Below are positions 10,718 to 26,000 of a stretch of DNA of 64,000 bases, piece after piece. The notes under the pieces were generated by a model, which saw only the letters and a program-made list of their open reading frames with translations, did not search any database and was not told the origin of the DNA. Within the stretch, counting starts at the first letter, position 1. The number at the start of each line of letters is the position of its first letter. A program made the position numbers and the translations under genes. The stretch comes from an uncultured Clostridia bacterium (GTDB lineage: Bacteria; Bacillota; Clostridia; TANB77; CAG-508). Location: the NCBI GenBank assembly GCA_944387505.1, contig CALXFG010000003.1:751-64750 (forward strand). Reading direction: 5' to 3'.

Positions 10718-11389
10718 ATGTTTAAGTTTAAAGGAATATCTAGTACAGATATGCAAGTAATAATTGAAGAAGAAGAACATTTTATAGCAAGAGCAGCGAA
10801 AAGGTATGAAGTAACAGAAATAGAAGGGCGAGATGGAGCAATATTTGATGAACTAGGTTATTCTTATGTTGAGAGACCAATTTATGTACAATGCCTAAAT
10901 ATTGATAAAATAGACGATATTCTTTCTTGGCTAGATGGAGAAGGAGAGCTTGAATATAAAGGAAGAAAAACAATAGCAAGATTTTATAGTAAATTAGAGC
11001 CACAAAGAGATACAATTATAAGGATAATTGATACAAATTTTATACGAGATCCATTTTGGACGAAAATTGAGGATAATTTTGTTACAGCTACAAACAATAT
11101 TGAAAATACAGGCAATATATACAGTAGACCAATACTAAGATTAGAAAAAACTGATTATGAAGACGTTGATATTGAAATAGCAGGAATAAGATTTCAATAT
11201 ACTTTTGAGGATGATGAATATGTTGAAATAGATTGTGAAGAAAAGACGGCATTATATGAAGGTTTAAATCGAAATAGACAATTGACTATAGGGTATGAAT
11301 TTCCAAAATTAAGCCCAGGGAATAATGTAGTTACAATAAAGGAAGGAGAATGCACAATAAAAGCTAAAAGAAAGGATAGATGGCTATGA
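10718..11389 (+). CDS. Distal tail protein (Dit)
   Basis: 223 aa immediately after the TMP, the typical siphovirus arrangement. Confidence 0.7.
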   Translation: MFKFKGISSTDMQVIIEEEEHFIARAAKRYEVTEIEGRDGAIFDELGYSYVERPIYVQCLNIDKIDDILSWLDGEGELEYKGRKTIARFYSKLEPQRDTIIRIIDTNFIRDPFWTKIEDNFVTATNNIENTGNIYSRPILRLEKTDYEDVDIEIAGIRFQYTFEDDEYVEIDCEEKTALYEGLNRNRQLTIGYEFPKLSPGNNVVTIKEGECTIKAKRKDRWL

Positions 11390-14298
11390 TAAAAATATTT
11401 GATGCAAATGACAAAGATTTTACTACGGCAGGTAATATAGTTATTAATCCTACAAAATGCTTGGAATACAAGAAAAAGTCTTTAAATGGTTGGTATATTG
11501 AAGTTGAAATACCAATTAAGTATAAAGATTATATAGAAAAAGATAAATTATGTGTCGTAAAAACAAAATCAAAATTAAATCCACAAGCTTTTAGAATTGG
11601 AAACGATATAAAAAAGACAAATCGAAAAATAACCTTTACAGCGAATCATGTAATGTTTGATGCACAGGATTATTTCTTAGTAGATGTAAGACCAACAAAT
11701 CAAAATGGACTAAATGCTCTAAATTATATAAACGATAGGACTGATAATGTCAGTCCTTTTACTATATATTCGAATGTTGAAAATGTAAATACTGCCTATT
11801 TTATTAGAAAAAATCTGTTAGAAGCATGGGCAACAATAGAAGAAAGATGGAATGGTGTTTTTGATGCAGATAACTGGAATATTAGTTTTTTACAAAGTGT
11901 TGGACACGATAATGGAGAAAGCATTATATACGGAAAAAATATGCAATCTATGGAAATTTATGAAGATTGGTCTAGTGTTGTAACTAGATTATATCCTGTG
12001 GGTTCAAATGAATTAATGTTACCAGAAAAATATATAGAAAGCGATGTGCAATACGAAAAGCCATATACAAGAACAGTAGAATTTCAAACAAAATTAGAAC
12101 AAGAAGAACAAACAGAAGAAGCATTAATAGAAGAATTAAGAACAAATGCTGAGGCATATATAGAAGAAAACAAATATCCTAAAGTAAGTTATACAACCAC
12201 CTCTGATATAAATGACGATATGGAAATAGGAGATACTATTCAAGTATTACATCCACTCGTCACTATACAAACAGAAGTCTTAGAATATCAATATGACATT
12301 ATATCTAAAAAAGTAAAATCTTTAACTTTTGGAAACTTTACAAGAGATGTAAAAGCTAAATTTGATAATATAAAAAATACTATAAATCAAATTGGACAAA
12401 CAGTATCAAATCAAGAAACAGTTATACAACAACAAACAAATTTAATCAATTCTTTAAATAAAAATGGATATGTGTATATAGATGATAATGAAATACTGAT
12501 TTTAGATAAAATACCAAAAGAAGAAGCAGAAAATGTATGGAGATTTGGTTTAGGTGGTATAGGTTTTAGTTCTAATGGTTATGAAGGTCCTTTTGAAGTG
12601 GCAATAACAATGGACGGACAAATAAATGCAGATTTCGTTACGACAGGAACAATGAACGTTAGTAGGATAGAAGGGTTAGCAAATATTATTTCTGATTACA
12701 ATGCACAAATTGCAGCAATAACTTTACAGTTAGGACAAATACAACAACAGGTTTCCAGTATGGAAGAATTTAGCCGAGAAGTAACAGGAACAAACGAAAT
12801 ACATTTAGAGAATACTGTTGAAGGGCAAGAATATGTATTAAATTTTAAAATAAAAGGAGATAGTGATAAATTTATTTATCTAACTCCAAGCAATACACTA
12901 GTACCTAGTAACACTTTGGTTCCATTGGGAGATCATTTTACTCTAGTATCTGATAAGCAGAATAGAAATTCAATAAGTGATGATGCTCAAATAATAGATG
13001 TCATATTAAGTGAACCATTAAGGAGTTTGAATGATGTATATGATGAGTTAAACATAGTTAATGGTAAAACAACTGTCACAAGGAGAATAGGCGTAGACGA
13101 AAATTTAAATCTATATGAATTAGACAATGAAGTAATAGAAAATCTACAAGATATATCTTTAAAAACTTTTGACGAAGATACTTATATTTATATAAAAGAG
13201 TACGAAGGATTAGAATATTCTGTAAAATATATAATAAAAAATGATTATATAGATATATTAGCTACAAAAGTAGAAATGAATACTGCAATTACTCAAACAG
13301 CAAATAGTATTACCAGCTCTGTTTCGGAAACATATGAAACAAAAGAAAATGCTCAAACTCGATATTCACAAATAAAACAAACAACTGATAATATCAGTTT
13401 AGAAGTAGGTAAAAAAGTAGATGATGAAGAATTAACTGGAGCGAATATTGCATTAAGAATAAATGGAGATACTAGCGAAGCTGCAATCAATGCTGATAAG
13501 ATAAATATAAATGGAGTTATTTCTGCAAATGGAAATTTTAAAGTTAATACTAATGGAACGTTAACAGCCATAAATGCTTATCTTTCAGGACTTCTTATAA
13601 ATGGAGGAAATCCACTAGAAAATGAATCAGGAACAATGATAGATAAAAATGGAAATATGTATTGCAGCAATTTAAGAATATATTCTAATATTGGCTTTAA
13701 TGGATTGCAAGTATTTGCAACTAATAATAATTGTAGAACAATAATAATAAACAACGGATTGCAAATATATCCAAATAACAATTCTTCAGAACGAACATTT
13801 GAAGCATTATATAGTGAAAATAACGGATATTCATACATAAGAATGCAAAGCGGACGAATACAAATTCAGAATGGAATTATCTTTTTAAATAACGGAGAGC
13901 TAAATGTTGGACATATCAACGCTTCAGGATATGGATATTTCAATGATTATGTAAGAGCTACTCAATTTGTAAATGCATCTCAAAAAGAGAAAAAGGAAAA
14001 CATAAAAAAATTAAAAGAATTAAAAATAAAACGAAAAGCACTTGACATAGTAAAGAATACAGATATTTGCGAATATAATTTCAAAGGAAGTAAACATAAA
14101 CAAATAGGGGTAATCATAGGAGACGGATATAATGCACCTGACGAAATATTAAGCGAAGATAAAAATGGTATAGATTTGTATAGCATGATTTCTAATCTTT
14201 ATAGAGCATTTCAAGAATATATAGAGGAACAAGAAGAAAAAATAAATAAATTGGAAGAAAAGTTGAAAAATTATGGAATGGATAAAGAAAATAGTTAA
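11386..14298 (+). CDS. Tail-associated lysin/tail fibre (Tal) with a C-terminal intramolecular-chaperone (S74-like) domain
   Basis: ATGA overlap with Dit. About 970 aa. The C-terminus (...KHKQIGVIIGDGYNAPDEILSEDKNGIDLYSMISNLYRAFQE + coiled coil) resembles auto-cleaving chaperone domains of tail fibres. Confidence 0.7.
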   Translation: MIKIFDANDKDFTTAGNIVINPTKCLEYKKKSLNGWYIEVEIPIKYKDYIEKDKLCVVKTKSKLNPQAFRIGNDIKKTNRKITFTANHVMFDAQDYFLVDVRPTNQNGLNALNYINDRTDNVSPFTIYSNVENVNTAYFIRKNLLEAWATIEERWNGVFDADNWNISFLQSVGHDNGESIIYGKNMQSMEIYEDWSSVVTRLYPVGSNELMLPEKYIESDVQYEKPYTRTVEFQTKLEQEEQTEEALIEELRTNAEAYIEENKYPKVSYTTTSDINDDMEIGDTIQVLHPLVTIQTEVLEYQYDIISKKVKSLTFGNFTRDVKAKFDNIKNTINQIGQTVSNQETVIQQQTNLINSLNKNGYVYIDDNEILILDKIPKEEAENVWRFGLGGIGFSSNGYEGPFEVAITMDGQINADFVTTGTMNVSRIEGLANIISDYNAQIAAITLQLGQIQQQVSSMEEFSREVTGTNEIHLENTVEGQEYVLNFKIKGDSDKFIYLTPSNTLVPSNTLVPLGDHFTLVSDKQNRNSISDDAQIIDVILSEPLRSLNDVYDELNIVNGKTTVTRRIGVDENLNLYELDNEVIENLQDISLKTFDEDTYIYIKEYEGLEYSVKYIIKNDYIDILATKVEMNTAITQTANSITSSVSETYETKENAQTRYSQIKQTTDNISLEVGKKVDDEELTGANIALRINGDTSEAAINADKININGVISANGNFKVNTNGTLTAINAYLSGLLINGGNPLENESGTMIDKNGNMYCSNLRIYSNIGFNGLQVFATNNNCRTIIINNGLQIYPNNNSSERTFEALYSENNGYSYIRMQSGRIQIQNGIIFLNNGELNVGHINASGYGYFNDYVRATQFVNASQKEKKENIKKLKELKIKRKALDIVKNTDICEYNFKGSKHKQIGVIIGDGYNAPDEILSEDKNGIDLYSMISNLYRAFQEYIEEQEEKINKLEEKLKNYGMDKENS

Positions 14299-14369
14299 AA
14301 AGCTAATCAAAATAGCGATTAGTTTTTTTATTTTGTGGTTTTTATATTTTATAAGAATGAGGTGAGAAA

Positions 14370-14756
14370 GTGGAAGAAGATGTTTATATAGAATTTAAAA
14401 ATGGACAAGCACCGTATATTAGTGACATAAATTTAAAACAGATGCAAAAATTGATTAAATCTGATATAAAAGAAAAACAAGCATTTAAATATATATTAGA
14501 AATTACAGAAGACAAAACCGCAGGACAAGAAATAACATTACCTTGTTATTATAAGGTCGGAGAAGAAGTACTAGATGTTTATTTAAATGGAGAACGTTTA
14601 ATTAGAAGCACAGACGAATCTGGAACAGATGGACATTATTGTGAAATAGGAGATACAGGAAGTATAAGCAACAAAATAAAAACTACAACAGACTGGAATC
14701 TAGAAACTGGAGATGTACTAGATTTAGTAGTAAGGGGGGAATATAATGGTACCTAA
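14370..14756 (+). CDS. Phage hypothetical protein (tail-fibre accessory region)
   Basis: GTG start after GAGGTGAG. 128 aa. Confidence 0.5.
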   Translation: MEEDVYIEFKNGQAPYISDINLKQMQKLIKSDIKEKQAFKYILEITEDKTAGQEITLPCYYKVGEEVLDVYLNGERLIRSTDESGTDGHYCEIGDTGSISNKIKTTTDWNLETGDVLDLVVRGEYNGT

Positions 14757-15174
14757 TTCATTGGAAAAAAGTGCATTAAAAGTATCAATCAAAGAATCTG
14801 TTACAGTTTCAGGACAAAGTGAGGAAACTTTAATACCAATGACAAAAATTCAAGAGCAAAATGGCAATGGTTTAAAAGTTTTAGCAGATGGAACTATACA
14901 AGCAACAAGAGATATGAATGTTTTTGCTAATGCATTAATAAATATTTATGTTTTATCAACAAATTTAAATAATGCAACAAGATTGTCTATTCAGGTAAAT
15001 AATAAAATAATATCTTCTGATCAACATTCATATTCGGCAGGATTTCATGTTATTTCTTATATAAAACTGAAAAAAAATGATATTATAAAATTAACTTTTA
15101 TTGATTTTAATGACGATATATCAAAAACAGGTTCAAATTTAAATACTAATCACATCGATATATTTGAAATATAA
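14746..15174 (+). CDS. Phage hypothetical protein
   Basis: 142 aa, overlapping the previous gene by 11 nt. Confidence 0.5.
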   Translation: MVPNSLEKSALKVSIKESVTVSGQSEETLIPMTKIQEQNGNGLKVLADGTIQATRDMNVFANALINIYVLSTNLNNATRLSIQVNNKIISSDQHSYSAGFHVISYIKLKKNDIIKLTFIDFNDDISKTGSNLNTNHIDIFEI

Positions 15175-15192
15175 AAAATAAGGAGGATAAAA

Positions 15193-15255
15193 ATGAAAAC
15201 AATAAATCCTGAAAGCCTTACGGCTGTACACACACACACACACACACACTTATAA
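15193..15255 (+). CDS. Leader ORF 1 (20 codons, MKTINPESLTAVHTHTHTHL) containing the (CA)10 tract
   Basis: AGGAGG (15181-15186) lies 6 nt before ATG 15193, with TAA at 15253-15255. Confidence 0.5.
   Translation: MKTINPESLTAVHTHTHTHL
15229..15248. repeat. Perfect dinucleotide microsatellite (CA)10
   Basis: Read directly: cacacacacacacacacaca, flanked by gta...ctt. Confidence 0.98.
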
Positions 15256-15282
15256 TCTAAAAAAGAAAAGAGGTGTTATATA

Positions 15283-15606
15283 ATGATACCTCTTTGTAAA
15301 AAAGATAAAGAAAATCTAAATGATTTAGAACAAAAATATAATAGCATAAAACAATTTACAAACAGTATATATGCAAATAATGGAAAAATAGAAATATCTA
15401 CTACTAATGGAACATTTTTAGTTTGGATTGTAACATCAGGAGGAGGACAAACACCATCACTTGTATTAATAAGCGTAGAAAATAGTGGAAATATGCAATA
15501 TTGGGGACAAGGTGGCATGCATAATGCTCCTACATATTCAAATGGAAAAATAACAATAACAACAAAAAATCAGTATTTCCGTTACGGATATATAAAATTA
15601 AATTAA
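15283..15606 (+). CDS. Phage hypothetical protein (107 aa, MIPLCK N-terminus), cargo 1
   Basis: ORF with its SD GAGGTG buried in a stem 15267-15276/15286-15295. Confidence 0.65.
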   Translation: MIPLCKKDKENLNDLEQKYNSIKQFTNSIYANNGKIEISTTNGTFLVWIVTSGGGQTPSLVLISVENSGNMQYWGQGGMHNAPTYSNGKITITTKNQYFRYGYIKLN

Positions 15607-15625
15607 TAGATAAGGAGAAAGTAAA

Positions 15626-15691
15626 ATGAAAGAAAGACGTAAAATCCTTGATACTCTAAGAGAGAGAGAGAGCTACACTTTACTAAAATAA
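15626..15691 (+). CDS. Leader ORF 2 (21 codons, MKERRKILDTLRERESYTLLK) containing the (AG)7 tract
   Basis: AAGGAG (15612-15617) lies upstream of ATG 15626, with TAA at 15689-15691. Confidence 0.5.
   Translation: MKERRKILDTLRERESYTLLK
15659..15672. repeat. Perfect dinucleotide microsatellite (AG)7
   Basis: Read directly: agagagagagagag. Confidence 0.98.
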
Positions 15692-15713
15692 TAAAAAGCA
15701 AGGAGGTGTTGAG

Positions 15714-16061
15714 ATGATACCTCTTTGTAAACAAAATAAGTCAGAAAAAATCTTAGACACAACAAATGAAGAATATAATATCGAGATAAAAGCATATAAA
15801 TCTGGAAAAGTAATTATGGTAACATTATATACAATGAATTTAATTAAACAATTAAATCAAGGTGCAGTAAATGCTTTAATTGCACAATTAGGTGAAGAAA
15901 ATGGAGCAGTTGAAAGCTATAGAAAAATAATTCAATCATCAAGAGGAGAAATATTTAGTATTAGATGTGAATCTAATGGAAATATATATATAGCTTATGC
16001 ATATAATAATATTTCAAAATCAAGCCAAATAGCAGGAAATTTAACATACATAGCAAAATAA
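15714..16061 (+). CDS. Phage hypothetical protein (115 aa, MIPLCK N-terminus), cargo 2
   Basis: ORF with its SD GGAGGTG buried in a stem 15700-15709/15717-15726. A terminator hairpin follows at 16090-16125. Confidence 0.65.
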   Translation: MIPLCKQNKSEKILDTTNEEYNIEIKAYKSGKVIMVTLYTMNLIKQLNQGAVNALIAQLGEENGAVESYRKIIQSSRGEIFSIRCESNGNIYIAYAYNNISKSSQIAGNLTYIAK

Positions 16062-16139
16062 AAAAGGATAAAAAATAATATTAAAAATAATAGCATATAT
16101 GTTGCTATTATTTTTTTAGACTGTTTATAGGAGGATAAG

Positions 16140-16442
16140 ATGTTAGAGTCTATTGGAGTTTATATAGCAACAACAATTATAGGAGCAATATTAGGATTTA
16201 TTGCTGCTAAATACAAAAAAAACAAGAAAAAAGATTTAGCAATAGAGCAAGGGGTACAAGCTTTGCTCAGAAATGAAATAATACGAAGATATCGAGAATT
16301 TGAGAGTAAAGGTGAAATATCTATACTAGATCAAGAAAACTTAGATGAAATGTTTATACAGTATCAAAACCTTGGAGGAAATGGTACAGTTAAAAAAATG
16401 ATGAATGATTTATATGAATTAAAAACAAAAATTGTAAGATAG
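16140..16442 (+). CDS. Phage membrane protein of the lysis module (N-terminal TM, possible holin partner)
   Basis: SD AGGAGG. TM IGVYIATTIIGAILGFIAA followed by a basic stretch. Located directly before the holin. Confidence 0.5.
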   Translation: MLESIGVYIATTIIGAILGFIAAKYKKNKKKDLAIEQGVQALLRNEIIRRYREFESKGEISILDQENLDEMFIQYQNLGGNGTVKKMMNDLYELKTKIVR

Positions 16443-16454
16443 GAGGGATTAAAG

Positions 16455-16658
16455 ATGTCTAATAAAGTATATGATGTCTTAAAATGGATTACATTAGTAT
16501 TTTTACCAGCATTAACAACTTTAACAGGTGTAATTTTAAATTGTTTTAATGTAGGTTGTACAGATATAGTTTTAACAATTATGACAGCCGTAACAACTTT
16601 TATGGGAGCAATCTTAGGAATATCTAATATTAATTATAATAAAAACAAGGAGGAATAA
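16455..16658 (+). CDS. Holin (phi LC3 / Dp-1-like small two-TM type)
   Basis: 67 aa. The pattern YDVLKWITLVFLPALTTL...TAVTTFMGAILGIS is typical of this holin family, and it sits immediately upstream of the endolysin. Confidence 0.75.
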   Translation: MSNKVYDVLKWITLVFLPALTTLTGVILNCFNVGCTDIVLTIMTAVTTFMGAILGISNINYNKNKEE

Positions 16659-16661
16659 ACA

Positions 16662-17336
16662 GTGAATTACAGTGAATTTATCAATGAATATAATGGAAAA
16701 TCTTTTGATTATGATGGAGTTTCAGGAGTTCAATGCGTAGATTTAATCAAAATGTATTTGAATAAAGTATTTGGATTAAATCCAGGTGCTTGGGGAAATG
16801 CTAAAGATTACTATGAAAATTTTAATAATTTACCATTAAAAAATAGTTTTGATAGAATAGCAAATACTCCAGAATTTGTACCACAAAAAGGAGATATTGC
16901 AGTATGGGGTACAGGACTTGGTAATACATATGGACATGTAGCAATAGCTACAGGAGAAGGAAATACATCTAATTTCTATACATACGATTTAAATTGGAAT
17001 GGTAAAATAGTTCATAAAGTAAATCATACATATAAAGGATTTTTAGGAGTATTAAGACCAAAAGACCAATCTAAAATTGGTACAGAAACAGTAGTAGAAA
17101 ATAATTCTAATAAGGAGGAATTTGATATGCCAAAAACATGGAAAAATGGAAGTACAAATGAAGATGTTTACGCAGATACAGATATGACTAAAAAAATAGG
17201 AACTATATATCCAAGAGGAGAAGCAGATTGCTATGGAGTTGTAGACGGAAAATATTTAGTTTGCTATAATATCTATAGTGGAAATACAGTAGCAAATAGA
17301 AAAACTGGATTCGTTAAATATAACGGTGGTTTATAA
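16662..17336 (+). CDS. Endolysin: N-terminal CHAP domain plus a C-terminal SH3-like wall-binding domain
   Basis: CHAP catalytic context GVQCVDLIK (Cys) and YGHVAIATG (His). GTG start. Last gene before the terminator. Confidence 0.85.
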   Translation: MNYSEFINEYNGKSFDYDGVSGVQCVDLIKMYLNKVFGLNPGAWGNAKDYYENFNNLPLKNSFDRIANTPEFVPQKGDIAVWGTGLGNTYGHVAIATGEGNTSNFYTYDLNWNGKIVHKVNHTYKGFLGVLRPKDQSKIGTETVVENNSNKEEFDMPKTWKNGSTNEDVYADTDMTKKIGTIYPRGEADCYGVVDGKYLVCYNIYSGNTVANRKTGFVKYNGGL

Positions 17337-20061: not shown

Positions 20062-23000
20062 TTGAAAACAAATAAAATATTAAAAATTGATGGAACAATA
20101 TTAGACAAAAAGCAATTAGAAAACCATTTACAAAAAATAGCATCAAACCATAACTTAATCAACAAACCATCAAAAGAAACATATCCAATTCCGCAATTAA
20201 TCGAAAATTATGAAACGATAAAAATGGTATATAACTTATTGAATGAACATGTAAAATTAGGAATGAATACACATCCAGCAGGTGAATGGTTGCTAGATAA
20301 TTTCTATATTATAGAAGAAACCGTAAAACAAATCCAAAAAGAATTAACACTAAAAAAATACATGAATTTTCTAGGAATTGCGAATGGAAAATACAAAGGA
20401 TTTGCTAGAATCTATGTATTGGCAGCAGAAATTGTAGCCTATACAGATAATAAAATTGAAAAAGAAGATTTAGAAGACTATCTGGCAAGTTACCAAGAAA
20501 AAAAGACATTAAGTATGGAAGAAATTTGGAATATTGGATTGTTTCTTCAAATAGCCATTATTGAAAATATTAGAGAAATTTGTGAAAAAATATATAGTAG
20601 TCAAATACAAAAAATGAAAGCAGAAAATATTGTACGAAAACGAATGGAAACACCTAAAGACAATAAAGATAATCCTATATATCCTCTAAAAAATATCAAA
20701 AAAGATATATTAAATGACGTCAAATATCCATTTATTGAATATATGTCATATATCCTAAAACGATATGGAAAAAAAGGATATCGCTATTTAAAAATATTAG
20801 ATGAAATTGTAGAAATGACAGGAACGACCGTACAAGAAGTTATCAAAAAAGAACATTTTGATATTGCTGTTAAAAAAGTATCTATTGGCAATAGTATTAC
20901 AAGCATAAAGACCATTCAAAGAATCAATTTTTTAGAAATTTTTGAAAAAATAAATGGGGTAGAAGAAATTTTAAAACAAGACCCAGCAGATGTGTATTCT
21001 AAAATGGACAATCCGACAAAAGAGAGTTATAGAAACAGCATTAAAGAAATATCGAAAAAAACAAAAATATCAGAAATTTATATAGCTAAAAAGATTTTAC
21101 AATTGGCAAAAGAAAATGAAAACAATGGAAAAAAAGCACATATAGGATATTATATCATTGATAAAGGAATTGACAAAGTTTATCAAGAATTACAGTGTAA
21201 AGCACCAAAACATATGGGAGAAAAAACAAAGCAAAAACTGTATATTACAAGCAATATCATTTTATCAATTGTATTGTCACTTGCATTTAGTAGTATTTTA
21301 AATCTATATACAAAAAATTTAGGAATATATCTATTGAGTTTTTTCATTTTATGGATTCCATCATCAGAAATTGTCACCCAAATCATACAATATATGTTAA
21401 GTAAAGTAGTAAAACCAAAACCAATTCCTAAAATAGATTTCTCAAAAGGAATTGATGAAAAACATGCTTGTATGGTAGTGATTCCCACCATATTGAAAGA
21501 CAAAGAAAAAGTAAAAGAATTGATGTACAAATTAGAAGTGTATTATATTGCAAATAAATCCAAGAATTTGTACTTTACTTTATTAGGTGACTGCTCAGAA
21601 AGTGGCATGAAAGAAGAAAAAAGTGATCATGAAGTGATTGAAGCAGGAATCCAATTAGCGGAAAACTTGAATAAAAAATATGCAACAGAAAATGCTTTTC
21701 CGATTTTTCATTTTATTTATAGAAAAAGAGAATGGAATGAAAAAGAAAATTGCTATTTAGGATGGGAAAGAAAAAGGGGAATGCTGACACAATTTAATGA
21801 ATATTTATTAGGACATGAAGAAAATGTATTTCGTGCCAATACCATAGAAGAATACAAAGATTGCATTCCTAAAATACAATATGTGATTACCTTAGATGCA
21901 GATACAGAGCTAATTTTAAATTCTGCATTTGAATTGGTAGGAGCAATGGCACATATCTTAAATAAGCCAGTCATGGATGAAGAGAAAAATGTTGTCATAG
22001 AAGGTCATGGAATCATTCAACCAAGAATAGGAATCAATTTAGATATTTCATATAAAACGATATTTACACAAATATTTGCAGGAGCAGGGGGGATAGACTC
22101 TTATACAAATGCGATTTCTGATTTATACCAAGACAATTTTGGAGAAGGAATTTTCACAGGAAAAGGCATTTATGATTTGAAAGTATTTTCAAAAGTATTA
22201 AAAAATGCGATTCCAGAAAACACCGTATTAAGTCATGATTTATTAGAAGGATGTTATTTACGTTGTGGATTGGCAACAGACATTATGCTAATGGATGGTT
22301 ACCCTACAAAATATAATAGTTTTATGAACCGATTATCTAGATGGATAAGAGGAGATTGGCAAATTATTAGTTGGCTGAAAAGTAAAATAAATAGCAAAGT
22401 AGGAGACATACCAAATCCATTAAATAATCTTTCAAAATATAAAATCTTTGATAATTTAAGAAGAAGTTTAATAGAAATAGCGGTTATCATTTCTTTGATT
22501 TTGTTTGCTATACTAGGAAAGCAATATCATTTTAAAACATATCCATTTATGGCGATAAGTCTCATCACAGTAGTCATGTCTTATATATTAGAAATTTTTA
22601 ACACTATGTTAGTAAAAAAAGAAGGGGAGCATAAGCAAAAAAAATTCTCTCCTAGAATATCAGGATATAAAGGAATTGGTTTAAGAATCTTAATAACCAT
22701 AGGCGTATTACCATATAAAGCATATATGTCCTTTATAGCTATAGTAAAAACATTGTATCGAAAATGGGTGAGCCACAAGAAACTATTAGAATGGATGACA
22801 TCTGAAGAGGCAGAAAAACAAGCCAAAAATGATGTGATGTCATATGTAAAACAAATGTGGTTTAATATCGCTTTGGGAATTTTAAGCCTAGGACTTGCAT
22901 TAACAAACAAAGGCTTTGGAGATTTTATTATTGAAACCATATTGGGAATTTTATGGATCGTTACACCGGTTATCATGTGGTATATTAGCAAGGAAAAGAA

Positions 23001-26000
23001 GGAACAAAAGACAATTGAAACATTAGATCAAACAGAAATAGAATATGTCCTAGAAATCGGAAGAAAAACATGGCAATTCTTTAAACAATACATCACAAAA
23101 GAAAACAATTATCTGATGCCAGACAATTACCAAGAAGATAGAAAACAAAAAATTGTTGCAAGGACATCTTCAACCAATATAGGATTGTCAATCTTAGCCA
23201 TTGTTTCAAGTTATGATTTACAATATGAAACATTACCAGATACCATAGATTTATTATATAAAGTTATAACTTCAGTGGATAGTTTGCAAAAATGGAATGG
23301 ACATTTATACAATTGGTATGATACCAAAACAAAAGAACCATTACGACCAAGATATATTTCAACAGTGGATAGTGGGAATTTCGTGGGATATTTGTATGTG
23401 ACAAAAGCCTTTTTAGAAGAAATACTAGAAACGTTACAGAACAATGATAATCAACGTTTTGAAAAAGATATGCAACATAAAAAAAACAAAGTAGAAAATG
23501 AAGAAAAAATGCTAACCTTACAAAATCAAATACGAGAAATGCTAGAAATCATTGAAAGAACCATTCATCAAACAGACTTTAGCTATTTATATAGTCAAGA
23601 ACATCAAATCTTTTCCATCGGATACAATATTGAAGAAAACAAACTAACAGATTCGTATTATGATTTATTAGCAACAGAAGCAAGACAAGCAAGTTTAGTT
23701 GCCATTGCGAAAAAAGATATTCCATCAAAACATTGGAATCATTTAAGTAGAACATTAACCGTTTTGGGAAAATATAAAGGATTAATTTCTTGGTCAGGAA
23801 CCGCATTTGAATACTTAATGCCAAATATCAATATTCCTAAATACAAAGGTAGCCTACTAGATGAATCTTGCAAATTTATGATGATGAGTCAAATGAAATA
23901 TGCAGAAGAAATGCATTTACCATTTGGAGTATCTGAATCTGCATTTAATTTAAAAGATTTACAATCTAATTATCAATATAAAGCATTTGGAATTCCTTGG
24001 CTGGGACTAAAAAGAGGGCTAGCAGATGAAATGGTGGTATCTTCTTATGGTAGTATATTAGCCATTACCGATATTCCAAAAGAAGTCGTTAAAAATTTAA
24101 AAGTATTAGAAAAATATGGTATGTATAACCAATATGGATTTTATGAGTCAATAGATTTTACACCAGAAAGAGTTAAAAAAGGAAAAGAAGCAGAAGTTGT
24201 CAAAACCTATATGGCACATCATCAGGGATTAATCTTATTATCGATTAATAACTTAATCAATCAACTGATTTTACAAAAACGATTTGTAAAAAATCCAGAA
24301 ATACAAGCAGTTACTATCCTACTTCAAGAAACCATGCCAGAAAAAGCCATTATCACAAAAGAAGATAAAGAAAAGGTAGAAAAACTAAAATACAAAGATT
24401 ATGAAGATTATATTGTAAGAAGTTATAACAAAATAGATGAAAGATTGATAACAGGAAATGTCATTTCTAATGAAAATTATATGATAGCAATGAATCAAAA
24501 AGGTGAGGGTGTTAGTCAATATAAAAATATGTATATCAATCATTTTAAGCGTACAGATGATAATACACAAGGAATGATATTTTATATCAAAAGTATTAAA
24601 AATAAACAAATCATGAGTTCAAGTTATTCACAAAATAGGGGAAATGCATATCAAATTCGATTTATGCCAGATAAGGATGAACAAGAGATAACAAGTGGAA
24701 ATATAAAAGCGAAGATAAAAACAACCGTTGCCTCAAATGAACCAGTAGAATTGAGAAGAATCCTATTAGAAAACTTAGGAAACGAAGAAGAAATTGTAGA
24801 ATTAACAGGATATTTTGAACCAATCTTAGTACCCAAAGAACGATATTATGCCCATCCAGCTTTTAATAATCTATTTTTGGTATATGAATATGATGAAAAA
24901 AGTGAAGCTTTAATTGTAAAAAGGAAGAAAAGAGAATTAGGAGAAAAAGAAATCTATTTAGCCACAACACTACATGCTAGTAGAGAAAATAGAATTGGTG
25001 ACTTAGAATATGAAATAGAAGAAGAAAAATTTATGGGAAGAGGGAATTTAACAATACCCAAAATGGTCAAAGACTCATTGCCATTTTCTAAAAAAATAGG
25101 ACTTGTAACAGAACCAGTAGTAGCATTGAAAAGAACTATCAAAATAAAAAGCCAGGAAAAAGTAGTTATTGATTTTATAGTATCTGTAGAAGAGGATAAA
25201 GAGCAAACTGTTCAAAATTTAGAAAAATATATGTCTTTCGAAAATGTAAAAAATGAATTTGACTTGTCAAAAGCCAGAGTAGAAGCAGAAACCAGATATT
25301 TAAATGTGAAAGGAAAAGATATAGAGAGTTTTCAAAAAATGTTGGCATATATTTTGTTTGACGATTCTATTAAAAGTGTAGAAAAAGAAAAAATAAAACA
25401 AATACAATCATTCAAACAAAGTGAACTATGGAAATATGGAATATCAGGAGATTTGCCAATTGTCTTGGTGAAAATGAAAAATGTAAACGATGCAGATGGA
25501 TTAAAGGAAGTTTTAAAAGCTTATGAATATTTTAGAACCAAAAATGTAGAAACAGAAATTGTCATTATAGATGAAGAAAAATATAGTTATGAAAATTATG
25601 TAAGAGAAGAAATAGAGTCAACCATATTAAACCAACACATGGGATATTTGAAAAATATAAAGGCAGGCATCTTTATACTAAATGAAGAGGAAATGGATAG
25701 ACAAGATATTACATTTTTAGAATTTATATCTGTCATCACAATTGATTGTGCAAAAGGAAATTTAGAAAATAATCTAAAAGAAATAGAAGAAACGTATTTA
25801 GAAAACTATAAAGAAATTAGTGAAGAAGAAAATACAAATCAATTTACAGAAGAAAATACAGAAGATATGGATATCTTAAAAAATACAGAAAATTTAAAAT
25901 ATTATAATGAGTATGGAGCTTTTTCAGAAGATGGAAAAGAATATTGGATATGTGTGAATAAAGGAAAAAGATTACCAACTGTCTGGTCACACATTATGGC

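What the first reader, a model, noticed from the sequence alone, without database searches (positions are those of the whole stretch)
15181..15300. Switch module 1: a (CA)10 tract in a 20-codon leader ORF, with one alternative frame ending as TAATG on the start codon of a hairpin-masked phage gene
Seen in sequence: AGGAGG (15181-15186) and ATG 15193 open a 20-codon ORF, MKTINPESLTAV(HT)3HL. Its codons 13-19 are a perfect (CA)10 tract (15229-15248). As assembled, the ORF stops at TAA 15253-15255, 28 nt before the next gene. That gene's SD (GAGGTG, 15270-15275) is paired in a 10-bp stem, AAAGAGGUGU (15267-15276) with AUACCUCUUU (15286-15295), and AUG 15283 sits at the loop edge. The frame with coordinate mod 3 = 2 is open from 15206 to TAA 15281-15283, and the last A of that stop is the A of ATG 15283. 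Gaining one CA unit (or losing two) puts the leader into this frame. Losing one unit stops it at 15258-15260. Inference: only one repeat-length class lets ribosomes melt the SD stem and terminate on the start codon (termination-reinitiation coupling). Slipped-strand mispairing would then switch the 107-aa ORF ON and OFF, and the assembled state is OFF. A microsatellite acting through a coupled leader ORF, rather than inside the gene or in a promoter spacer, is not a mechanism I know to be described.
Basis: partly seen in the sequence, partly recalled or inferred. Interest (0 to 1): 0.88.

Follow-up and report, generated by a model that had tools for sequence, protein, structure and literature searches.

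The report
Microsatellite leader switch for phage tail genes
A prophage of a gut Clostridia bacterium carries two small tail-fibre-type genes, each probably switched ON or OFF at random by a slippery dinucleotide repeat in a tiny upstream reading frame that must be translated in the right frame to unmask the gene's hidden ribosome-binding site; the same cassette occurs in over 100 related phage loci.

Summary
SD AGGAGG, ATG 15193 and a 20-codon leader hold a perfect (AC)11 tract (15228-15249). A 13-bp hairpin (15267-15295, -14.4 kcal/mol) buries the SD and AUG of the 107-aa gene. Only one post-repeat frame crosses it, ending as TAATG on that AUG.

A second module with (AG)7 follows at 15611-16061.

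- 64 modules with this hairpin type were found in 52 phage, prophage and MAG loci. In 62 of them exactly one frame reads through the hairpin, and almost all of these stop at -2, +1, +14 or +17 from the cargo ATG. The other frames stop 21-31 nt upstream.
- This layout holds in 30 of 32 distinct sequence variants, against 4.3 expected from shuffles.
- Among 54 locus pairs with at least 99% identical flanks, 39 differ in repeat number (range 5-18). Both ON and OFF frames occur.
- Homologues without a leader lack the hairpin and overlap the upstream gene by TAATG.

Cargo genes are very diverse small proteins, and several match C-terminal tips of tail fibres.

No reads or expression data were available. 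Three assemblies of the same clone all show AC11/AG7. I rate it a new variant of SSR phase variation, apparently undescribed.

The parts
14370..14756 (+). Conserved 128-aa gene ('X') that precedes the variable slots. Its N-terminus is of a tail-fibre anchor type.
   Evidence: Homologues lie upstream of the modules in about 40 related loci (tblastn). P0011 is a natural fusion of this N-terminus to the cargo-A domain. It follows the 972-aa Prophage_tail protein at 11380-14298.
14746..15174 (+). 142-aa 'default' variable gene. It starts ATGGTACCT (MVPNS...) and overlaps the end of X, so it is always coupled and has no switch.
   Evidence: ORF list. No homologue in any related locus. It occupies the same position as the leaderless cargo-A genes in L014 and L017, which overlap X by TAATG.
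15181..15186 (+). Shine-Dalgarno AGGAGG of leader ORF 1.
   Evidence: Sequence. An SD-like motif precedes the leader ATG in all complete modules.
15193..15255 (+). Leader ORF 1, 20 codons as assembled (MKTINPESLTAVHTHTHTHL). It is in an OFF frame and stops at TAA 15253-15255.
15228..15249 (+). (AC)11 microsatellite, the proposed slippage site.
   Evidence: TRF: period 2, 11.0 copies, 100% match. Related modules carry 5-18 units.
15258..15260 (+). TAA stop of the second OFF frame.
   Evidence: Frame table: stop at -25 from the cargo ATG.
15267..15295 (+). 13-bp hairpin that sequesters SD GAGGTG (15270-15275) and AUG 15283 of cargo A.
   Evidence: RNAfold -14.4 kcal/mol, z = -5.9. SD fully paired in all 32 variants of this hairpin type.
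15281..15283 (+). TAA stop of the single through-frame, overlapping the cargo start as TAATG. This is the proposed termination-reinitiation site.
15283..15606 (+). Cargo A, 107 aa: an N-terminal helix followed by an 8-strand beta sandwich.
   Evidence: AF2 model, pLDDT 84. BFVD matches at TM about 0.5 to tail-fibre and tail-spike domains. A 17-member family known only from metagenomes, with no Pfam or PHROG hit.
15611..15616 (+). Shine-Dalgarno AAGGAG of leader ORF 2.
   Evidence: Sequence.
15626..15691 (+). Leader ORF 2, 21 codons as assembled (MKERRKILDTLRERESYTLLK), in an OFF frame.
15659..15672 (+). (AG)7 microsatellite of module 2.
   Evidence: L180 and L182 have identical 50-62-nt flanks and (AG)6, which is the through-frame.
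15698..15728 (+). 13-bp hairpin that sequesters the SD (GGAGGTG) and AUG 15714 of cargo B.
   Evidence: RNAfold -17.0 kcal/mol, z = -6.8.
15715..15717 (+). TGA stop of the module 2 through-frame, overlapping the cargo start as ATGA.
   Evidence: Frame table: stop at +1.
15714..16061 (+). Cargo B, 115 aa.
   Evidence: In L001-L006 and L012 this cargo type sits behind the AC leader and cargo A behind the AG leader, so leaders and cargos are shuffled.

Best explanation
This is a contingency (phase-variation) switch that acts on translation.

Proposed mechanism:
1. The two small tail-module genes sit inside the late tail-to-lysis transcription unit.
2. Each cargo gene cannot recruit ribosomes on its own, because its SD and AUG are locked in a stable hairpin of -14 to -17 kcal/mol.
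3. Each is preceded by a mini-ORF that has a strong SD and contains a dinucleotide microsatellite.
4. Slipped-strand mispairing during replication changes the unit number, and therefore the frame in which ribosomes leave the tract.
5. In two frames they meet a stop 21-31 nt before the cargo ATG, and the hairpin stays closed (OFF).
6. In the third frame they translate through the hairpin's 5' arm (SD) up to the start codon, melt it, and terminate on or just past the start (TAATG, ATGA or +14). The cargo is then made by termination-reinitiation or by entry at the opened site (ON).

As assembled, both modules in the window are OFF. Module 1 would turn ON with +1 or -2 AC units. Module 2 would turn ON with -1 or +2 AG units.

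The cargos are most likely alternative receptor-binding tips that share a conserved N-terminal plug (MIPxxK...). If so, the switch gives a phage population stochastic, combinatorial host-range variants.

Shown: the anatomy, its conservation, tract hypervariability, and the existence of both frames in nature.
Inferred: the slippage rate, the dependence of cargo translation on leader frame, and the cargo's function.
For: 1. Anatomy in the window.
2. In 64 modules from 52 loci, 62 have exactly one through-frame. OFF-frame stops lie at -21 to -31.
3. 30 of 32 distinct post-repeat variants keep this layout, against 4.3 expected from shuffles. Stops are kept through TAA/TAG/TGA changes and through indels that move the open frame among all three frame indices.
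4. Hypermutability: 39 of 54 locus pairs with 5 or fewer mismatches in 500 nt of flank differ in unit number. For example, L028 has 18 units, L045 has 17 and L062 has 11, with 0 flank mismatches between L028 and either. L001 and L002 are identical over 1230 nt except for AG 8 versus 7. One class shows n = 9, 11, 11, 11, 14, 14, 15, 16, 16, 17, 17, 18.
5. Both states occur: 13 ON and 42 OFF. Module 2 itself is OFF with AG7 in the window and ON with AG6 in L180 and L182, with identical flanks.
6. The cargo start regions are the two most structured of 44 in the window.
7. Leaderless homologues (L014, L017) lack the hairpin and use a TAATG overlap with gene X.
8. Scans that used only the leader and the repeat, and so were not conditioned on the hairpin, found about 50 more loci with different SD-masking hairpins. 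These include a compensatory C-G to T-A change between the L123 and L139 classes. They also include an SD-less cargo that starts as TGAATG right after the through-frame stop.
9. Many contigs break exactly at the tract.
10. No terminator-like site, and no excess of promoter-like sites, lies in 14200-16700.
11. Cargo identity: other cargo families match Pfam Gp10_C (2.4e-27) and the C-terminal ends of tail-fibre PHROGs, for example phrog_2712 positions 582-699 of 700. Cargo A has a helix plus beta-sandwich fold.
Against: - There is no expression, ribosome or read-level data, so ON and OFF are assigned from sequence logic only.
- The three other assemblies of this exact prophage are 100% identical, with AC11 and AG7. 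No variation has therefore been seen at the window's own module 1.
- ON is somewhat under-represented (13 of 55 against one third expected). The loci are not independent, so this is uninformative.
- Some OFF stops lie only 21-22 nt before the ATG. A terminating ribosome there could fray the first pairs of the stem, so OFF may be leaky.
- Some sister classes (L016, L123, L127, L131) have two frames that reach the hairpin.
- The 64-module set was retrieved with a pattern that required both hairpin arms. Hairpin conservation inside that set is partly ascertainment.
- Cargo A itself has no significant sequence or PDB fold match.
Confidence: 0.75

Rival explanations
1. The tracts are hypervariable but functionally neutral microsatellites in an untranslated intergenic spacer. 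The 'leader ORF' and the stop layout are by-products of AT-rich sequence, and the cargo genes are expressed or silenced regardless of tract length.
For: Stops are frequent in AT-rich DNA. A single variant reaches the two-early-stops-plus-one-open-frame layout in about 13% of shuffles. No expression data exist.
Against: The layout holds in 30 of 32 distinct variants against 4.3 expected. The leader SD, ATG and open frame are kept in every complete module despite divergent leader sequences and lengths. The through-frame ends within -2 to +17 of the cargo ATG in all but one case. The leader and hairpin appear and disappear together.
Confidence: 0.07
2. The tract is a variable promoter spacer, as in classical SSR phase variation of transcription. 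TACACA at the tract start would act as -35 and TATAAT (15251-15256) as -10.
For: The consensus scan finds TACACA, an 18-nt spacer and TATAAT with 10 of 12 matches.
Against: - Promoter-like sites in the region are no more frequent than in shuffles (16 against 17.8).
- With this geometry the spacer is 2n-4. The observed 5-18 units give 6-32 nt, with no clustering at 16-18.
- The TATAAT is not conserved. Relatives have TTATAG, TTAATA, GGATAA, AAGTAG or ATGTAA, while the two stop codons it encodes are conserved.
- AG modules have no comparable hexamers.
- This model does not explain the conserved leader SD and ATG or the stops on the cargo ATG.
Confidence: 0.05
3. The leader is a sensory peptide of the attenuation type. 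His/Thr codons from (AC)n, or Arg/Glu codons from (AG)n, would stall ribosomes when the charged tRNA is scarce, and stalling would remodel the downstream structure as in erm, cat or his leaders. Unit number would only tune sensitivity.
For: (AC)n encodes (His-Thr)n and (AG)n encodes (Arg-Glu)n in every frame, and the leader is short with a strong SD.
Against: - The predicted folds show one simple stem-loop and no alternative pairing between the leader and a hairpin arm.
- In OFF frames the ribosome stops at least 21 nt before the ATG, so a stall inside the tract is too far away to open the stem.
- Leaders are read in different frames relative to the conserved nucleotides (L015 and L042 against the others), so the peptide is not conserved.
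- Two chemically unrelated repeats are used interchangeably with the same cargos.
Confidence: 0.03
4. The conserved leader, hairpin and MIP N-terminus are mainly cassette boundaries that allow homologous recombination to swap tail-tip genes between phages. The repeat variation would be incidental.
For: Leaders and cargos are clearly shuffled. The AC leader drives cargo A in the window but cargo B in L001-L006 and L012. At least 18 unrelated cargo families sit behind near-identical boundaries.
Against: This view is not exclusive with the switch. It does not explain perfect, long, hypervariable tracts, the conserved stop layout, or the SD-masking stem whose energy makes these the most occluded starts in the window.
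Confidence: 0.1

Closest known systems
Bacterial contingency loci: SSR phase variation by slipped-strand mispairing (H. influenzae lic and lgtC, Neisseria opa, Campylobacter polyG genes)
   Same: A perfect simple repeat whose unit number varies between otherwise identical sequences. Changes of unit number cycle through three frames, one ON and two OFF (ON/OFF tables for H. influenzae genes in PMC6479036).
   Different: In those systems the repeat lies inside the regulated ORF or in its promoter. Here it lies in a separate mini-ORF of about 20 codons, and the regulated gene keeps its frame. The output passes through an RBS-masking hairpin and termination on the start codon.
H. influenzae lex2A/lex2B
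   Same: The GCAA repeat lies in the upstream gene lex2A, while the glycosyltransferase is encoded by the downstream lex2B (PMC3116884; PMC6479036). This is the nearest case of an SSR in an upstream ORF governing a downstream gene.
   Different: That lex2B depends on lex2A translation is my recollection of Griffin 2003 and Deadman 2009, which I could not retrieve. I know of no dedicated SD/AUG-sequestering hairpin or portable cassette there. It is chromosomal and concerns LPS, not a phage.
Translational coupling through masked start sites (RNA phage MS2 coat-to-lysis and coat-to-replicase, ribosomal protein operons)
   Same: A downstream start buried in structure is used only when ribosomes translating an upstream frame open it and terminate nearby. 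In MS2, out-of-frame ribosomes that terminate near the lysis start reinitiate there (my knowledge: Kastelein et al. 1982; Adhin and van Duin 1990).
   Different: In those systems the coupling is constitutive or depends on rare ribosomal frameshifts. Here the frame is set heritably and reversibly in the DNA by a microsatellite.
Phage contingency loci: Campylobacter Fletchervirus polyG tracts (Sorensen et al. 2021, Cell Rep 35:109214, cited in PMC10877375) and T2/T4 homopolymer loci (Gomez et al. 2025, bioRxiv 10.1101/2025.10.21.683753)
   Same: Phage-encoded hypermutable repeats that create phenotypic heterogeneity in the progeny, including in receptor-binding functions.
   Different: Those are homopolymer tracts inside the coding sequence of lytic phages of Gram-negative hosts. 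Here dinucleotide tracts sit in leader ORFs of temperate phages of Clostridia, with translational coupling and multiple alternative cargo cassettes.
Phage tropism switches: Mu G-segment and P1 C-segment inversion, and Bordetella BPP-1 diversity-generating retroelement
   Same: A stochastic, heritable choice among alternative tail-fibre tips within one phage genome (if the cargo assignment is right).
   Different: There is no recombinase, invertible segment or reverse transcriptase. The alternatives are switched independently, so 0, 1 or 2 extra tips could be ON.
Small stand-alone receptor-binding proteins of Gram-positive siphophages (for example lactococcal TP901-1 BppL)
   Same: Size of about 110-160 aa, an N-terminal helix followed by a beta-sandwich head, and a gene position after the Tal and baseplate genes and before the holin. 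The BppL anatomy is from my knowledge.
   Different: No detectable sequence or significant PDB fold similarity. Attachment to the virion is untested.

Membership tests
SSR contingency locus (phase variation by slipped-strand mispairing) | A perfect simple-sequence tract long enough to slip | tested here: met
   (AC)11 with 100% matches and (AG)7.
SSR contingency locus (phase variation by slipped-strand mispairing) | Tract length is polymorphic between otherwise identical sequences | tested here: met
   39 of 54 pairs with at least 99% identical 500-nt flanks differ in unit number. Module 2 has AG7 in the window and AG6 in L180 and L182 with identical flanks. Not seen for the window's own module 1: three clonal assemblies all have AC11.
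SSR contingency locus (phase variation by slipped-strand mispairing) | Heterogeneous tract lengths within one population, with reversible switching | not testable with these tools
   No read data. Contig breaks at the tract are compatible with heterogeneity but not specific to it.
SSR contingency locus (phase variation by slipped-strand mispairing) | A length change alters expression of a defined gene | tested here: inconclusive
   Frame consequences are computed and conserved. Expression was not measured.
Translational coupling by termination-reinitiation | The upstream ORF's stop overlaps or abuts the downstream start | tested here: met
   In the through-frame only: TAATG in module 1 and ATGA in module 2. 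Stops lie at -2, +1, +14 or +17 in 65 of 66 through-frames.
Translational coupling by termination-reinitiation | The downstream SD and AUG are sequestered, so independent initiation is poor | tested here: met
   Hairpins of -14.4 and -17.0 kcal/mol with the SD fully paired. The mean of other genes is -2.6. The functional consequence is inferred from de Smit and van Duin type energetics (my knowledge).
Translational coupling by termination-reinitiation | Downstream translation depends on upstream translation | not testable with these tools
   This needs reporter or toeprint experiments.
SSR promoter-spacer phase variation | -35 and -10 hexamers flank the tract, with spacing near 17 bp in the ON state | tested here: not met
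   One 10-of-12 match with an 18-nt spacer. The -10 is not conserved, and tract lengths of 5-18 imply spacers of 6-32 nt.
Leader-peptide translational attenuation (erm/cat type) | Alternative pairing between the leader region and the SD-masking stem | tested here: not met
   The MFE and centroid folds of 135-nt regions show a single isolated stem-loop.
Phage receptor-binding / tail-fibre tip proteins (cargo) | The gene lies in the distal tail module | tested here: met
   It lies after the Prophage_tail protein and before the holin and CHAP endolysin. The arrangement is the same in relatives.
Phage receptor-binding / tail-fibre tip proteins (cargo) | Homology or fold similarity to known tail-fibre distal domains | tested here: inconclusive
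   Other cargo families hit Gp10_C and the C-terminal ends of tail-fibre PHROGs. Cargo A gives only TM about 0.5 to BFVD tail proteins and nothing significant in the PDB. Cargo B was not tested.
Phage receptor-binding / tail-fibre tip proteins (cargo) | Presence in virions and an effect on adsorption or host range | not testable with these tools
   Experimental.

The most novel reading that the evidence does not exclude
Temperate phages of uncultured gut Clostridia carry a portable leader-plus-microsatellite cassette that works as a general-purpose stochastic switch. Placed before an SD-masking hairpin, it gates alternative receptor-binding tail tips by termination-reinitiation. With 1-2 modules seen per phage, this would give combinatorial host-range bet-hedging without recombinases or DGRs. 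Fused directly to an ORF, the same leader gates DNA methyltransferases. This would be a previously undescribed regulatory architecture for phase variation and a new route to phage tropism switching.
Probability: 0.55. Interest if true: 0.88.

Novelty: new variant of a known kind. Interest (0 to 1): 0.8.

Why it matters
If the model is right, three things follow.

1. It adds a mechanism to the short list of ways bacteria and phages make heritable, reversible ON/OFF choices. The mutable element is separated from the regulated gene, so any cargo can be plugged in without carrying a repeat in its own coding sequence. The observed shuffling of at least 18 unrelated cargo families behind the same cassette shows that nature uses it this way.

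2. It would be a recombinase-free and DGR-free way for temperate gut phages to hedge host range. That bears on phage-host dynamics in the microbiome and on the design of switchable or broad-range phages.

3. It is a practical warning for metagenomics. These loci break assemblies, and gene callers ignore the 20-codon leaders, so the regulation is invisible in standard annotation.

The cassette is compact, at about 90 nt. It could be tested quickly, and reused as a synthetic stochastic switch.

Tried and rejected
- Megablast and blastn of 14300-16700 against INPHARED phages gave no match.
- Protein-pattern scans for cargo A in IMG/VR and in GTDB genomes gave no confirmed relative. DNA-pattern scans succeeded instead.
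- A metagenome scan for the window-specific hairpin loop gave 0 hits.
- Exact-protein look-ups of the window's own cargos found only 100% identical clones plus one phage lineage that is 93-95% identical (L180, L182). The window's module 1 tract could therefore not be shown to vary.
- The PDB fold search for cargo A found nothing at E <= 0.001. Pfam and PHROGs found nothing for cargo A, cargo B, X or Y.
- Promoter-spacer model: considered because TATAAT follows the tract. Rejected (plus the comparative data).
- Attenuation or alternative-pairing model: rejected.
- Pairing of (AC)n or (AG)n with a hairpin arm: considered from the sequence. It would mask the SD in one module type and free it in the other, it amounts to only 4-6 bp, and it is absent from the MFE folds. 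Rejected.
- Literature searches for an SSR-containing uORF coupled to a downstream gene, and for SSR switches in phage tail genes, found no direct precedent. The Deadman 2009 lex2B paper could not be retrieved.
- Most hits of the AG-leader pattern were unrelated sequences.
Full report
OBSERVATION.
- AGGAGG lies at 15181-15186 and ATG at 15193. The 20-codon ORF MKTINPESLTAVHTHTHTHL ends at TAA 15253-15255.
- TRF calls the tract (AC)11 at 15228-15249 with 100% matches. It is the only period-2 array reported in the 64-kb window.
- The next gene (ATG 15283, 107 aa) has its SD GAGGTG and its AUG inside a 13-bp stem-loop at 15267-15295. The stem-loop folds at -14.4 kcal/mol, z = -5.9, and none of 200 shuffles is as stable.
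- Of the three frames leaving the tract, the assembled one stops at -30 from the cargo ATG. A second stops at -25. The third runs through the stem and ends at TAA 15281-15283, which overlaps the start as TAATG.
- One unit more, or two fewer, puts the leader in that third frame.

A SECOND MODULE. A module with the same plan follows immediately.
- SD lies at 15611-15616 and the leader ORF at 15626-15691. The tract is (AG)7 at 15659-15672.
- The hairpin lies at 15698-15728 and folds at -17.0 kcal/mol.
- The through-frame ends as ATGA on ATG 15714 of a 115-aa gene.
- Among 44 SD-preceded ORFs in the window, these two start regions are the most structured: -17.0 and -14.4 kcal/mol, against -6.1 for the next one and a mean of -2.6.

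CONTEXT. Positions 1 to about 18,500 are the late region of a siphovirus-type prophage. The gene order is:
1. a 972-aa Prophage_tail protein;
2. a conserved 128-aa gene, here called X;
3. a unique 142-aa gene that overlaps X;
4. module 1, then module 2;
5. a 100-aa gene, a Dp-1-type holin and a CHAP endolysin.
The rest of the window is host chromosome (a giant GH94 protein, PBPs, MurE and a PFOR-type oxidoreductase). No terminator-like site lies in 14200-16700, and promoter-like sites are no more frequent there than in shuffles. The modules therefore probably lie inside the late transcript. Relatives found in genome assemblies are all MAGs of uncultured gut Clostridia.

RELATIVES OF THE CARGO. 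Cargo A belongs to a 17-member family known only from metagenomes. Contigs that encode its members show the same two module types.
- The unit numbers differ. In six loci that encode the identical protein P0001, AC is 12, 12, 14, 12, 14 and 14 or more, and AG is 8, 7, 7, 8, 7 and 7.
- L001 and L002 are identical over 1230 nt except for AG 8 versus 7. L003 differs from them by one SNP, by AC 14 versus 12, and from L001 also by AG 7 versus 8.
- Leaders and cargos are shuffled. In these phages the AC leader drives the 115-aa type and the AG leader drives the 107-aa type.
- Two homologues (L014, L017) have no leader, no tract and no hairpin. They overlap gene X directly by TAATG. The leader therefore replaces an upstream gene as the donor of coupled ribosomes.

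WIDER CENSUS WITH THE HAIRPIN PATTERN. A hairpin-pattern scan of IMG/VR and a pattern scan of GTDB genomes that required the hairpin together with a dinucleotide tract raised the set to 64 modules in 52 loci, with 32 distinct post-repeat sequences.
- In 62 of the 64 modules exactly one frame reads through.
- Through-frame stops lie at +1 (46 cases), +14 (14), -2 (3) and +17 (2).
- All OFF-frame stops lie at -21 to -31.
- The layout holds in 30 of the 32 variants, against 4.3 expected when the spacer is shuffled. The variants are related by descent, so this is not a probability. However, the stops are kept through TAA/TAG/TGA substitutions and through indels that move the open frame among all three frame indices.
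- Every module not cut by a contig end has a leader SD, an ATG and an open frame up to the tract. This holds even though leader peptides differ and are read in different frames relative to the conserved nucleotides.
- By frame, 13 modules are ON and 42 are OFF as assembled.

HYPERMUTABILITY. Among 54 locus pairs whose 2 x 250-nt flanks differ at 5 or fewer positions, 39 differ in unit number. Several of these have zero flank mismatches: 18 versus 17, 18 versus 11, 14 versus 9 and 9 versus 6. Many contigs start or end exactly in the tract.

THE WINDOW'S OWN PHAGE. Three other assemblies are 100% identical to the window, including AC11 and AG7, so they are clonal and uninformative. A phage lineage that is 93-95% identical (L180, L182) has module 2 with flanks identical over the 50-62 nt examined but (AG)6, which is the through-frame. 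Its module 1 has a compound (AC)10(AT)12 tract.

SCANS NOT CONDITIONED ON THE HAIRPIN. Searching only for the leader end plus the tract found about 50 more IMG/VR loci. They share the conserved AC leader (..GCCTTGnGGCTGT(AC)n) but have different downstream designs.
- Different SD-masking stems occur: GGAGGTGT/GCACTTCC with TAATG, GGGGGTGT/ATACCTTC, and GGAGGT/ACCTCT with TAATGA.
- A 15-20-bp stem shows a compensatory C-G to T-A change between the L123 and L139 classes.
- In one class the cargo (MIPKCK...) has no SD at all and starts as TGAATG directly after the through-frame stop.
- Some classes have two frames that reach the hairpin.
These findings independently support termination-reinitiation as the common logic.

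CARGO.
- At least 18 mutually unrelated cargo families sit behind the cassette. They are 84-152 aa, with one of 281 aa, and nearly all begin M-I-P.
- The M-I-P start is kept even where those codons are not part of the stem. It is therefore probably also a protein feature.
- One family matches Pfam Gp10_C at 2.4e-27. Others match the extreme C-termini of tail-fibre PHROGs.
- The cargo A model (pLDDT 84) is a 23-residue N-terminal helix plus an 8-strand beta sandwich. It gives weak BFVD matches to tail-fibre, spike and baseplate domains at TM about 0.5 and no significant PDB match.
- P0011 is a natural fusion of the X-type N-terminus to the cargo A domain.
- X is conserved in about 40 loci, while the slot after it is variable.
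- The most economical reading is that these are alternative receptor-binding tips that dock through a shared N-terminal plug. This is an inference.

MECHANISM. The anatomy, its conservation, tract hypervariability and the natural occurrence of both frames are shown. The slippage rate, the frame-dependence of cargo translation and the cargo's function are inferred. OFF may be leaky where stops lie only 21-22 nt before the ATG.

RIVALS.
- A promoter-spacer role is not supported. One search gives a TACACA-18-TATAAT match, but the TATAAT is simply two overlapping stop codons and is replaced in relatives by other stop-bearing sequences. Tract lengths would also imply spacers of 6-32 nt.
- erm-type attenuation is not supported, because no alternative pairing is predicted.
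- Neutral microsatellites do not explain the conserved leader and stop layout.
- A role of the conserved boundaries in cassette shuffling is likely real, but it is complementary to the switch.

COMPARISON AND NOVELTY.
- SSR phase variation is classical, and the layout of three frames with one ON is the same as in H. influenzae and Neisseria genes.
- The nearest architectural precedent I know is lex2A (with the GCAA tract) upstream of lex2B (the glycosyltransferase). The mechanism of their dependence is from my memory.
- Masked-start coupling is known from MS2 and from ribosomal protein operons (my knowledge).
- Phage contingency loci have been reported only for homopolymers inside ORFs: Sorensen 2021 (cited) and the Gomez 2025 preprint.
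- Seven of my full-text searches, four of them targeted at such precedents, found no description of a microsatellite-bearing leader ORF with an SD-masking hairpin, nor of this cassette in Clostridia phages.
- I therefore rate it a new variant of a known kind. It is widespread (over 100 loci in the scans) and of high interest. It still lacks any experimental or read-level confirmation.

Noticed in passing
L172:4147-4900 and L167:4305-5400 (IMG/VR UViG_3300045988_141871 and _150036): The same AG-type leader, ATGGAAAATAAAAACGCTAAAACCCTTGATGCTCTA(AG)n, has no stop and no hairpin after the tract here. In one frame it runs straight into a DNA methyltransferase ORF. In L172 this is an N6/N4 type with (AG)9, out of frame. 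In L167 it is a C5 type with an interrupted (AG)6AA(AG)6 tract, in frame. The leader-plus-SSR cassette therefore looks portable and is also used as a classical in-ORF switch.
   Followed up: partly
L180:1000-1045 and L182:1-45: In the lineage that is 93-95% identical to the window's phage, module 1 carries a compound microsatellite, (AC)10(AT)12, instead of (AC)11. Its module 2 has (AG)6, which is the through-frame (ON), against (AG)7 in the window.
   Followed up: partly
L116, L120, L130, L134, L143, L145, L153, L155: In this sister class the cargo (MIPKCK... or MIPNCK...) has no recognisable SD and starts as TGAATG immediately after the through-frame stop. A 9-bp GGAGGAAGTA/TACTTCCTC stem with a loop of about 22 nt lies upstream, and one OFF frame stops inside that loop.
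   Followed up: partly
L129, L147, L154, L136, L140, L114: Further AC-leader modules are followed by two consecutive strong hairpins, with total energies of -27 to -45 kcal/mol. The second hairpin masks a GGAGGTT-type SD. Their cargo starts and frame logic were not resolved.
   Followed up: no
Contig ends: L004, L006, L008, L010, L011, L013, L016, L018, L178, L182: Metagenome contigs repeatedly begin or end exactly in the AC or AG tract. This is compatible with length heterogeneity in the reads, or with tracts longer than the assembler's k-mer.
   Followed up: no
P0015, P0016, P0017; equivalent to window about 15435-15455: Three different 80-aa cargo-A variants share the same frameshift at the ...VTSGGGQTPS... 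position (read instead as ...TSRKWTNTITF...), at a GGAGGAGGA-like run. These could be recurrent or inherited pseudogenes, or a second slippery site. Not examined at the DNA level.
   Followed up: no
window 14746-14756: The unswitched 142-aa gene starts ATGGTACCT (MVPNS...), close to the ATGATACCT (MIP...) of the switched cargos, and overlaps the end of gene X. In the leaderless homologues L014 and L017 the cargo-A gene occupies this position with a TAATG overlap.
   Followed up: partly
L159 and L163: An (AC)8 tract lies inside a GC-rich C5-cytosine-methyltransferase-like ORF (..ENVKNLVGKKF..QNRERVF..). The genomic context is unrelated to the leader cassette.
   Followed up: no
window 20062-28314: The host gene next to the prophage end encodes a 2750-aa protein with GH94 catalytic and supersandwich domains plus a glucoamylase-like domain, resembling a cyclic beta-1,2-glucan synthase. 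Cell-wall synthesis genes follow (PBPs, MurE).
   Followed up: no
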